A stretch of DNA of 11,317 nt, taken from a virus. The notes below the pieces were generated by a model. That model was not told the DNA's origin, made no database searches, and saw only the letters and a program-made list of their open reading frames with translations. Positions within the stretch are counted from its first letter, which is position 1; each line of letters begins with the position of its first letter. Position numbers and translations under genes: made by a program. This document shows positions 1,387-1,566 of this stretch, one piece after another. Location of the stretch: UHGV virus genome UHGV-0229837; one strand, written 5' to 3'.

Positions 1387-1566
1387 ATGAAAAACGCATT
1401 GCAGTTTTTGTTTGTTGCGTTCTGGTTGTTCGTATCATGTATGCCCATCATCTTCACAGCAAGGTATATGGAAAAAGTTGATGTTTTGATATTAATATTT
1501 GGATATATAAATGCCCTTTTTTTAGGGGTGTTCATGGCGGTCATGTGCATTGAATACTGGCGGTAA
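1387..1566 (+). CDS. Small hydrophobic membrane protein (59 aa, two predicted transmembrane helices)
   Basis: ATG at 1387 preceded by TAGGAGG (1376-1382) at 4-nt spacing; the track ORF 1348-1566 is an N-terminal over-extension from GTG. Sequence MKNALQFLFVAFWLFVSCMPIIFTARYMEKVDVLILIFGYINALFLGVFMAVMCIEYWR has two long hydrophobic segments. Confidence 0.5.
   Translation: MKNALQFLFVAFWLFVSCMPIIFTARYMEKVDVLILIFGYINALFLGVFMAVMCIEYWR

What the first reader, a model, noticed from the sequence alone, without database searches (positions are those of the whole stretch)
1387..1566. Small two-helix membrane protein with a perfect SD immediately upstream of the hok locus
A 59-aa strongly hydrophobic protein with TAGGAGG at ideal spacing. 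Small membrane proteins next to type I toxin loci can be additional toxins, immunity factors or superinfection-exclusion factors. I recognise no family.
Basis: seen in the sequence. Interest (0 to 1): 0.45.

Follow-up and report, generated by a model that had tools for sequence, protein, structure and literature searches.

The report
Unannotated small prophage membrane protein gene
The 59-codon reading frame just upstream of the hok/sok toxin locus is a real, conserved gene for a tiny two-helix membrane protein carried by E. coli prophages; standard annotation misses it and its function is still unknown.

Summary
ATG 1387 to TAA 1566 (+) encodes a 59-aa, strongly hydrophobic two-helix protein. 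TAGGAGG lies 4 nt upstream, and the ORF ends 90 nt before the hok/sok element (Rfam sok 1656-1826; hok CDS 1824-1979).

It is a real gene. A second E. coli subfamily (41% identity) has exactly the same length, start and stop, aligns without gaps, and also has hok sequence downstream. Differences between the two subfamilies concentrate at synonymous sites (pS 0.72, pN 0.33; dN/dS about 0.19). No other frame shows this, and the antisense ORF that some phage records annotate has stops in the paralog.

Subfamily A occurs in 1569 of 5426 complete E. coli genomes and subfamily B in 1045. RefSeq annotated nothing under it in any of the 69 records listed. Pfam, NCBIfam, PHROGs, PADLOC and PDB give no match.

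It sits in a variable cargo slot upstream of hok in Qin/Rac-type lambdoid prophages. Related phages carry relBE, paa/adfO or other genes there.

Function is not established. My best guess is a phage accessory inner-membrane hairpin that acts through a conserved small/polar helix face (SCxPIIxT; FGxxNALxxGVF). No own promoter, no toxin or holin hallmarks and no functional dependence on hok were found. This is a new small-protein family of an ordinary kind, of modest interest.

The parts
1376..1382 (+). Shine-Dalgarno motif TAGGAGG, 4 nt (AATA) upstream of the start codon. Position 1380 is polymorphic (A/G), so about half of related loci carry TAGGGGG.
   Evidence: Sequence; coordinates; allele counts 53 TAGGAGG against 54 TAGGGGG among flank-anchored loci. 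The RNA fold of 1267-1430 shows no significant structure (z +0.42) and the centroid leaves the SD unpaired.
1387..1566 (+). Coding sequence of the 59-aa membrane protein (subfamily A). The 72-aa GTG-1348 extended version is annotated as c1418 in CFT073. The conserved start is ATG 1387, because in the paralog a TAA lies 6 codons upstream in frame.
   Evidence: ORF list; intact in 108/109 flank-anchored loci; paralog at 41% identity with identical length; codon-position identity 58/73/47%, pS 0.72 against pN 0.33; paralog upstream sequence; source names.
1390..1464 (+). Transmembrane helix 1 (about residues 2-26). Residues L5, L8, W13, S17, C18, P20, I21, I22 and T24 are conserved between the subfamilies.
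   Evidence: Hydropathy, AlphaFold helix 2-26, invariant columns.
1465..1479 (+). Short polar turn (Y27-V31, flanked by R26 and D32). It is acidic in subfamily B (E26, E30), so it is predicted to be periplasmic, with both termini in the cytoplasm.
   Evidence: Charged-residue positions in A and B. The topology by the positive-inside rule is inference.
1480..1560 (+). Transmembrane helix 2 (about residues 32-58), with conserved L36, F38, G39, N42, A43, L44, G47, V48, F49 (a G39xxxA43xxxG47 small-residue stripe) and the conserved C-terminal I55-E56-x-W58-R59.
1517..1523 (+). T7 homopolymer inside the CDS (codons 44-46). It is the site of the frameshifted variants seen in databases.
   Evidence: Sequence; frameshifted variants P0019, P0021, P0024, P0025 and P0028; 1 of 109 flank-anchored loci has a 1-nt deletion here.
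1269..1281 (.). 13-bp palindrome CTTTAGaCTAAAG, 3 nt after the stop of the upstream (pseudo)gene. The paralog has CTTCAGtCTGAAG, so its symmetry is kept by a double change. Role unknown.
   Evidence: DNA alignment of A and B loci; coordinates; this intergenic block is 70% identical between A and B, against 50% for the rest of the spacer.
1622..1649 (+). Likely hok promoter (TTGCGG, 16-nt spacer, TAGAAT), between the ORF and the hok mRNA start.
   Evidence: Read from the sequence. The position fits the start of the Rfam sok/hok leader match at 1656. It is below the threshold of the consensus scan, so this is inference.
1656..2065 (+). Complete hok/sok type I toxin-antitoxin locus: leader with the mok/sok region, hok CDS 1824-1979, terminator 2048-2065. 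It is the conserved downstream neighbour of the ORF.
   Evidence: Rfam RF01794; Pfam HOK_GEF; terminator scan. In 97 of 98 flank-anchored loci with enough sequence the hok leader directly follows the ORF, and 74 have an intact 51-aa hok.
845..1266 (+). Upstream neighbour, a frameshifted pseudogene in this window (PHROG 660-like; 171-328 aa when intact in other prophages). Its 3' end is also retained next to the paralog.
   Evidence: PGAP annotation of a 99.8%-identical record; PHROG hit; intact versions ending 120 nt before the ORF; alignment with locus B.

Best explanation
The ORF is a genuine protein-coding gene of Qin/Rac-type lambdoid prophages of E. coli and Shigella. It encodes a 59-residue inner-membrane helical hairpin, probably with both ends in the cytoplasm.

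It is an accessory ('cargo') gene. It lies in the AT-rich, variable slot between the replication/nin-like genes and the hok/sok locus, in the same orientation as the early-right operon. It has its own strong ribosome-binding site but no recognisable promoter or terminator. It is therefore most likely transcribed with the early genes after induction, or from a weak unrecognised promoter (inferred).

The conserved residues form stripes of small and polar side chains on both helices (S17-C18-x-P20-I21-I22-x-T24; F38-G39-x-x-N42-A43-L44-x-x-G47-V48-F49) plus a C-terminal E-x-W-R. This is the pattern expected when a small membrane protein works by tight helix packing, either with copies of itself or with a larger membrane protein (inferred).

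The most likely biological role is a phage-benefit membrane function of the superinfection-exclusion or defence kind. It travels with hok/sok as a module but does not mechanistically depend on it (inferred, low confidence).

Shown: the gene is real, conserved, membrane-type and hok-linked. Inferred: expression route, topology, mode of action and role.
For: Real gene:
- Subfamily B (P0067/P0073) is 41% identical, exactly 59 aa, and aligns without gaps from start to stop.
- Identity by codon position is 34/59, 43/59 and 28/59. pS is 0.72 against pN 0.33. None of the other five frames shows this, and the antisense ORF has 2 stops in B.
- There are no gaps across the 180 coding nt, but 2-3 gap columns in each adjacent non-coding segment (3 in each 40-80-nt upstream segment).
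- The ORF is intact in 108/109 loci chosen by a flanking 24-mer, not by the ORF itself.
- Non-singleton polymorphic sites are 5 in 180 nt of ORF, against 9 in 93 and 8 in 90 in the flanks.

Prevalence: subfamily A is in 1569 of 5426 complete E. coli genomes and B in 1045.

Membrane hairpin: hydropathy and charges; AlphaFold helices 2-26 and 32-58.

Cargo slot:
- GC is 33-37% here, against 45-55% around it.
- Related phages with the same hok-rem-ydfU-rusA-Q backbone carry relBE, paa/adfO, a 259-aa gene or Ea22 in this slot.

hok linkage: the hok leader follows the ORF in 97 of 98 loci, and a hok fragment follows the paralog.

Independence from hok:
- The ORF is intact where hok is displaced by an IS plus relBE or mostly deleted.
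- Most hok places lack it (1631 places for the ORF against 10896 for the hok-containing query).

The SD is not sequestered.
Against: - There is no direct evidence of expression. No paper in the searchable library mentions the peptide or gives data on c1418.
- No sigma-70 promoter or terminator was predicted around it, and none is conserved in the paralog locus.
- Within subfamily A the polymorphisms are 10 non-synonymous to 0-1 synonymous. Recent evolution therefore looks neutral or relaxed, not purifying.
- PGAP annotates nothing under the match in the 69 RefSeq records listed, nor in the record read.
- Nothing supports an exclusion or defence role specifically: PADLOC, Pfam, PHROGs, NCBIfam, PDB and the fold search were all empty or non-specific.
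- All family members are from one species complex, so the selection evidence rests on a single A-B comparison.
Confidence: 0.6

Rival explanations
1. It is a membrane-damaging small toxin (type I-toxin-like, GhoT-like or holin/pinholin-like). When made, it oligomerises through the G39xxxA43xxxG47 stripe and depolarises or permeabilises the inner membrane. On this reading it is a second killer next to Hok.
For: It is a small, very hydrophobic two-helix protein. It has a conserved small-residue stripe and a buried Asn in helix 2, features also found in pore-forming small proteins (general knowledge). It neighbours a type I toxin locus.
Against: The strong SD is unsequestered and no cis-antisense RNA, antisense promoter or Rfam element overlaps the gene, which is unlike known type I toxins. 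It lacks the charged C-terminal tail and dual start of holins and lies outside the lysis cassette, which has its own class II holin. It is kept intact in about 29% and 19% of E. coli genomes, including degraded prophage remnants with no obvious antidote.
Confidence: 0.18
2. It is a functional partner of hok/sok: a protein-level modulator or immunity factor for Hok in the membrane, or a second component of a composite abortive-infection module.
For: Linkage to hok is conserved. The hok leader follows in 97 of 98 loci. A hok fragment follows the paralog even though synonymous sites between A and B are saturated.
Against: About 85% of hok-like places in E. coli, and 105 of 108 phage records with this hok locus, lack the gene. 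The gene is intact where hok is displaced about 3.3 kb away behind relBE (22 of 98 loci) or reduced to a 3' fragment. Linkage may simply reflect inheritance of one DNA block.
Confidence: 0.1
3. It was a gene in ancestral phages but is now an unexpressed relic in mostly defective prophages. Its high conservation within E. coli reflects recent common descent and recombination, not selection.
For: Within-subfamily polymorphisms are 10 non-synonymous to 0-1 synonymous. No promoter is predicted. The upstream neighbour is a pseudogene in this window. The paralog sits among gene fragments: an integrase fragment, a hok fragment and sitD fragments. Frameshifted variants at the T7 run occur in databases.
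Against: The ORF is intact in 108 of 109 loci and has about 3-fold fewer common polymorphic sites than its flanks. All five common amino-acid polymorphisms fall in columns that also vary between subfamilies, and none falls in an invariant column. The gene is carried by phages deposited as complete or partial phage genomes: PhiR42_1, vB_EcoS-640R1 and vB_EcoS-813R8.
Confidence: 0.12
4. The real gene is the antisense ORF (1311-1550, minus strand, 79-85 aa), as annotated in phage records ('hornerin', 'hypothetical protein').
For: Gene callers chose it in PV340562 and ON470612. It is open in the window.
Against: That frame has 2 stop codons in the paralog and shows no excess of synonymous change (pS 0.42, pN 0.37). 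It is the typical shadow of an AT-rich ORF whose third codon positions coincide with those of the true frame.
Confidence: 0.02

Closest known systems
Phage 'morons' / accessory cargo genes of lambdoid prophages (for example relBE in Qin, paa/adfO in PPompW, at the same slot)
   Same: AT-rich island of 33-37% GC within a 45-55% GC backbone. It is present or absent among otherwise syntenic phages at one slot upstream of hok-rem-ydfU-rusA-Q. It is not needed for phage core functions.
   Different: No promoter or terminator of its own was detected, whereas classical morons are autonomous transcription units. Its product is a 59-aa membrane hairpin with no described relatives.
Small phage inner-membrane superinfection-exclusion proteins (for example T4 Imm, HK97 gp15; from general knowledge)
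   Same: Small, phage-encoded, integral inner-membrane protein encoded outside the structural and lysis modules.
   Different: No sequence or specific structural similarity was found. Expression in the lysogen is unproven.
Hok/Gef type I toxins (the downstream neighbour)
   Same: Small hydrophobic membrane protein, adjacent on the same strand and co-inherited with it.
   Different: No HOK_GEF match. It has two helices rather than one helix plus a periplasmic tail. It has no mok-like overlapping frame, no antisense RNA and no leader-type RNA structure.
Class II holins / pinholins (two-TMD holins such as S21; from general knowledge)
   Same: Two transmembrane helices, with a Gly/Ala-xxx-Gly stripe in helix 2.
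   Different: There is no charged C-terminal tail (it ends E-Y-W-R) and no dual-start motif. Helix 1 is strongly hydrophobic, so it is not SAR-like. The gene lies upstream of Q, not in the lysis cassette, which already encodes a class II holin.
Pfam DUF4212 (small two-TM subunit associated with solute:sodium symporters)
   Same: Similar size and two-TM layout, with a weak hit for the paralog (E 0.071, 13.9 bits).
   Different: The hit is far below the 30-bit gathering threshold and the window protein has no hit. The genomic context is unrelated. The hit is probably compositional.

Membership tests
Hok/Gef (PF01848) | Match to the HOK_GEF profile | tested here: not met
   No Pfam hit for the 59-aa protein at E<=1, whereas the neighbouring CDS 1824-1976 scores 78.6 bits.
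Type I toxin-antitoxin toxin | Small hydrophobic membrane peptide | tested here: met
   59 aa, GRAVY 1.31, two predicted helices.
Type I toxin-antitoxin toxin | Cognate antisense or overlapping small RNA, and a structured mRNA that limits translation | tested here: inconclusive
   No Rfam family overlaps 1267-1655. No minus-strand promoter-like site was found. The 5' region folds no better than shuffles and the SD is unpaired in the centroid. An undescribed sRNA cannot be excluded without RNA-seq.
Holin (class II / pinholin) | Two TMDs followed by a charged cytoplasmic C-terminal tail; often a dual-start motif | tested here: not met
   Two TMDs are present, but the protein ends 4 residues after helix 2 (EYWR). 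The only Met near the start is M1.
Holin (class II / pinholin) | Location in the lysis cassette next to the endolysin, downstream of Q | tested here: not met
   The gene lies upstream of Q. The lysis cassette (class II holin, YdfR, lysozyme, Rz-like) is annotated separately downstream.
Moron (autonomous accessory gene of a temperate phage) | Atypical base composition, and presence or absence between related phages | tested here: met
   GC 0.325-0.37 across 1201-1600, against 0.43-0.58 for most of the neighbouring genes. There is different cargo at the same slot in related phages.
Moron (autonomous accessory gene of a temperate phage) | Own promoter and terminator flanking the gene | tested here: not met
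   No promoter-like or terminator-like site lies between 1267 and 1655 in the consensus scan, and none is conserved in the paralog locus. Weak or non-sigma-70 promoters were not covered.
Known anti-phage defence proteins (PADLOC-DB) | Match to any PADLOC model | tested here: not met
   0 families at E<=10 for both subfamilies.
Superinfection-exclusion membrane proteins | Blocks DNA entry or adsorption of incoming phage when expressed | not testable with these tools
   This is a functional definition and needs plating and DNA-injection assays.
DUF4212 (PF13937) | Score at or above the gathering threshold (30 bits) | tested here: not met
   13.9 bits for subfamily B and no hit for the window protein.

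The most novel reading that the evidence does not exclude
The 59-aa hairpin founds a new family of phage small membrane effectors that works together with hok/sok as a two-protein module. It could be a protein-level gatekeeper or immunity factor for Hok, or a second membrane effector of an abortive-infection cassette. That would explain why the pair has stayed adjacent since the two subfamilies split.
Probability: 0.1. Interest if true: 0.6.

Novelty: new member of a known kind. Interest (0 to 1): 0.35.

Why it matters
A conserved small membrane protein is present in roughly a third of sequenced E. coli genomes, or close to half if the paralog is counted and carrier sets overlap little (the overlap was not measured). 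Carriers include the reference pathogen CFT073 and the quality-control strain ATCC 25922. RefSeq annotation leaves it out and some phage records annotate it on the wrong strand. This is a concrete example of the small-protein blind spot. It also gives a cheap, testable candidate for a prophage-encoded membrane function (exclusion, defence or toxicity) next to a classic toxin-antitoxin locus. If it proved to interact with Hok it would add a protein component to a system thought to be purely RNA-controlled. If it does not, it is one more accessory phage gene.

Tried and rejected
- Family searches gave no usable hit: Pfam, NCBIfam, PHROGs, PADLOC and PDB sequences.
- The word-indexed protein search found only E. 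coli/Shigella sequences at 71% identity or more (at least 91% over near-full length), including many truncated or frameshifted ones. Only the exhaustive HMMER search revealed the paralog.
- A scan of one genome per species with the paralog found nothing. tblastn of both subfamilies against 50,697 phage records found only the three E. coli phages already known.
- The AlphaFold model gave a generic hairpin. The Foldseek search of viral structures had no match at E<=0.001, so I did not interpret it.
- Literature: the peptide string is absent. The single listed 'c1418' hit uses the tag for NarX in a table and is irrelevant. A search for hokD / Qin prophage / small membrane protein returned nothing about this gene.
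- Within-subfamily dN/dS: 10 non-synonymous to 0-1 synonymous changes. This is uninformative or neutral at this divergence and I did not use it as support.
- The first 80 loci were chosen by protein similarity and so were biased towards intact ORFs. I replaced them with a flank-anchored sample.
- Promoter footprinting between the A and B loci found no shared -35/-10 pair.
- The antisense ORF was rejected. The 72-aa GTG start was rejected because the paralog has an in-frame TAA 6 codons upstream of its ATG.

Full report
**1. The observation**

The window has an ATG at 1387 and a TAA ending at 1566 on the + strand. Between them are 59 codons that translate to MKNALQFLFVAFWLFVSCMPIIFTARYMEKVDVLILIFGYINALFLGVFMAVMCIEYWR. 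TAGGAGG lies at 1376-1382, separated from the ATG by the 4 nt AATA. That spacing is functional but short, so it is not quite 'ideal'.

The protein is very hydrophobic (GRAVY 1.31). It has two hydrophobic stretches separated by a short charged turn, R26-YMEKVD-32. AlphaFold2, given a nine-sequence alignment, returns two helices (2-26 and 32-58) at mean pLDDT 72.

A complete hok/sok locus follows directly:
- Rfam 'sok' matches 1656-1826 at 101 bits.
- The CDS at 1824-1979 matches Pfam HOK_GEF at 2.6e-22.
- A terminator-like hairpin lies at 2048-2065.

The ORF ends 90 nt before the hok leader. A plausible hok promoter (TTGCGG-16-TAGAAT, 1622-1649) lies in between; I read this from the sequence, so it is inference.

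In 5000 shuffles of the local 387 nt, an SD + ATG + at least 59 codons on the + strand arose 6 times.

**2. Setting**

A 99.8%-identical RefSeq record places the window in a Qin/Rac-type lambdoid prophage. The order is:
- dicB, ydfABC, repressor/cro-like genes, YdaT, a replication gene, DUF977, DUF7167
- a frameshifted pseudogene (window 845-1266)
- an unannotated gap that holds the ORF
- hokD, a hypothetical gene, DUF968/ydfU, rusA, the Q antiterminator, tRNAs and the lysis cassette

The ORF points the same way as this early-right operon. It lies in an AT-rich island of 33-37% GC, against 45-58% for the neighbours. No sigma-70-like promoter or intrinsic terminator was detected between 1267 and 1655. 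The 5' region has no significant RNA structure (z +0.42) and the SD is unpaired in the centroid structure.

**3. Is it a gene?**

Annotation disagrees:
- PGAP annotates nothing under the match in any of the 60 genome records listed, nor in the record read.
- Two phage records annotate the antisense ORF instead, as 'hornerin' and 'hypothetical protein'.
- Some GenBank records call the + strand ORF as 59 aa, or as 72 aa from GTG 1348. The 72-aa form is 'c1418' of CFT073. ATCC 25922 and UMNF18 records call it a 'putative membrane protein'.

The word-indexed protein search found only E. coli/Shigella sequences (at least 91% identical over near-full length), plus truncated or frameshifted forms. 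At that divergence selection cannot be judged. Among 109 loci picked by a flanking 24-mer rather than by the ORF, 108 keep the 59 codons. One has a 1-nt deletion in the T7 run at 1517-1523. However, the ten substitutions are all non-synonymous, and only one synonymous singleton appeared in the other sample. That pattern is compatible with neutrality. The ORF does have fewer common polymorphic sites (5 in 180 nt) than its flanks (9 in 93 and 8 in 90).

The decisive evidence came from the exhaustive HMMER search of 1.84 billion representatives. It found a second family (P0067/P0073) that is 41% identical, exactly 59 aa, and aligned end to end without gaps.

This subfamily B is present in 1045 of 5426 complete E. 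coli genomes and is again unannotated in the nine full-length RefSeq matches listed. It lies in a decayed prophage remnant at the ttcA (Rac attachment) site. The order there is ttcA, an integrase fragment, the ORF, a 3' fragment of hok, sitD fragments, then uspF.

The DNA of the two loci aligns from the 3' end of the upstream gene through the ORF to about 45 nt beyond the stop. Within the ORF:
- Identity is 58%, 73% and 47% at codon positions 1, 2 and 3.
- By the Nei-Gojobori method, pS is 0.72 (saturated) and pN is 0.33, so dN/dS is about 0.19.
- The other five frames give pS of 0.30-0.52 with pN of 0.33-0.39.
- The antisense ORF acquires two stops in B.
- The coding 180 nt contain no gaps, while each adjacent non-coding segment has 2-3 gap columns.
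- In B a TAA lies six codons upstream of the ATG in frame. The conserved start is therefore ATG 1387, not GTG 1348.

I conclude that this is a real protein-coding gene on the + strand (about 0.9).

**4. What the protein looks like**

Invariant positions between the subfamilies are L5, L8, W13, S17, C18, P20, I21, I22 and T24 in helix 1. In helix 2 they are L36, F38, G39, N42, A43 and L44; G47, V48 and F49 are conserved between the two subfamilies but vary in rare alleles. At the C-terminus E56, W58 and R59 are invariant, and I55 is conserved apart from a rare allele.

Helix 2 therefore carries a G39xxxA43xxxG47 small-residue stripe with a buried Asn. Helix 1 carries a Ser-Cys-x-Pro motif.

Subfamily B has R2-K3 at the N-terminus and an acidic turn (E26, E30). 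By the positive-inside rule this suggests that both termini are cytoplasmic and the turn is periplasmic (inference).

All five common polymorphisms in subfamily A (V16A, V31I, I37M, Y40H, M53T) fall in columns that also differ between the subfamilies.

**5. Relation to hok and to the slot**

In 97 of 98 flank-anchored loci with enough sequence, the hok leader directly follows the ORF. Of these, 74 keep an intact 51-aa hok.

In 22 loci the leader ends at the hok ATG. There an IS plus flxA-ydfV-relBE intervene, and the hok CDS resumes about 3.3 kb away. The same 16 nt (AGGAGAAGCAGGCTAT) lie at both junctions. In subfamily B most of hok is gone. So the small gene survives without a working adjacent hok.

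The converse also holds. The hok-containing query hits 10896 places in 4723 genomes, but the ORF hits only 1631 places in 1569 genomes. Only 3 of 108 phage records with this hok locus carry the ORF.

Related phages with the same hok-rem-ydfU-rusA-Q backbone carry other cargo in the slot: relBE, the adhesin gene paa/adfO, a 259-aa gene, or Ea22 plus a hypothetical gene. The gene is therefore one of several alternative accessory genes at a variable slot. It is co-inherited with hok as a DNA block, and there is no evidence of functional dependence.

**6. Mechanism**

Shown: a conserved 59-aa product that is predicted to be a membrane helical hairpin (hydropathy and AlphaFold; not tested experimentally), with a strong accessible SD, oriented with the early operon, AT-rich, and in a cargo position.

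Inferred:
- It is transcribed by read-through from the early-right promoter after induction, or from a weak promoter that the scan missed.
- It inserts as an N-in/C-in hairpin.
- It acts through tight helix packing, with itself or with a larger membrane protein.

I commit to a phage-benefit membrane role of the exclusion or defence type as the most likely function, at about one chance in three. The alternatives are a membrane-damaging toxin, a Hok partner, and an unexpressed relic. None of these can be separated with sequence tools.

**7. Comparison with known families**

There is no match in Pfam, NCBIfam, PHROGs, PADLOC or PDB. The paralog has a sub-threshold DUF4212 hit (13.9 bits against a 30-bit cut-off) that is probably compositional. 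The Foldseek search of viral models returns only generic hairpins, none at E<=0.001.

- It is not a Hok/Gef member.
- It fails the holin criteria: no charged tail, no dual start, and the wrong location.
- It meets the composition and presence/absence criteria of a moron, but not the own-promoter/terminator criterion.
- The RNA-antitoxin criterion of type I toxins is unresolved.

**8. Novelty and verdict**

The gene exists in databases only as 'hypothetical' or 'membrane protein'. It is omitted from RefSeq annotation and has no family model, and I found no literature on it. It is a new small-protein family with two subfamilies, restricted to E. coli/Shigella prophages, but of a familiar kind.

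Interest is modest (0.35). It is a good, cheap experimental target and an annotation fix, not a surprise. The most novel reading left open is a functional Hok partner, at about 0.1 probability.

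Noticed in passing
window 1810-1825; L201 (PhiR42_1) 4512-4527 and 7801-7816: The K-12-type relB-relE-hokD arrangement looks derived from a canonical hok/sok locus. 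In PhiR42_1 and 22 of 98 IMG/VR loci the hok leader (with sok) stops at the hok ATG. An IS plus flxA-ydfV-relBE follows, and the hok CDS resumes after relE. The same 16 nt (AGGAGAAGCAGGCTAT, the hok SD to AT of the ATG) lie at both junctions.
   Followed up: partly
window 1269-1281: A 13-bp palindrome CTTTAGaCTAAAG lies just after the upstream gene's stop. In the paralog locus it is CTTCAGtCTGAAG, so the dyad symmetry is kept by a paired change. This 40-nt intergenic block is 70% identical between the loci, against 50% for the rest of the spacer. It could be a protein-binding site or a small hairpin. It was not explained.
   Followed up: partly
window 1380: The SD of the small gene is dimorphic in the population: TAGGAGG in 53 and TAGGGGG in 54 flank-anchored loci. 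The G allele largely goes with the I37M/Y40H protein allele, whose residues match subfamily B.
   Followed up: partly
window 1517-1523: A T7 run inside the CDS is the site of most frameshifted database variants (55-aa forms ending ...RGVHGGHVH). It is rare in the IMG/VR loci (1 of 109). The variants are therefore probably sequencing or assembly errors or sporadic decay, not phase variation.
   Followed up: partly
window 1311-1550 (minus strand): Phage GenBank records annotate the antisense shadow ORF here ('hornerin' in ON470612 and ON470619, 'hypothetical protein' in PV340562). This is a mis-annotation. PGAP annotates neither strand.
   Followed up: yes
window 845-1266: The upstream neighbour is a frameshifted pseudogene in this window. 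Intact versions elsewhere are mosaic (171-328 aa, PHROG 660-like, no Pfam family) and share only the C-terminal part. A recombination boundary therefore lies inside that gene.
   Followed up: partly
L204-L209 about 6980-9170 (E. coli chromosome, ttcA-uspF interval): Subfamily B sits in a heavily decayed prophage remnant at the Rac attachment site. Around it are an integrase fragment, a hok 3' fragment and sitD (ABC-3) fragments. In L208 an intact sitABCD-like operon lies on the other side of the integrase fragment.
   Followed up: partly
window 6069-6258, 9528-9912, 11079-11277, 5116-5188, 5296-5369: Other Rfam matches in the window: sRNA STnc100, a cspA-type thermoregulator 5' UTR (prophage cold-shock gene), IS009, and two tRNA genes downstream of Q.
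   Followed up: no
L211 (PPompW_699) 1582-2328; L210 (HannyBb) 1294-2073: The slot immediately upstream of hok holds unrelated cargo in related phages: the adhesin gene paa/adfO in PPompW and a 259-aa Cys-rich gene in HannyBb. The slot appears to be a hot spot for accessory genes.
   Followed up: partly
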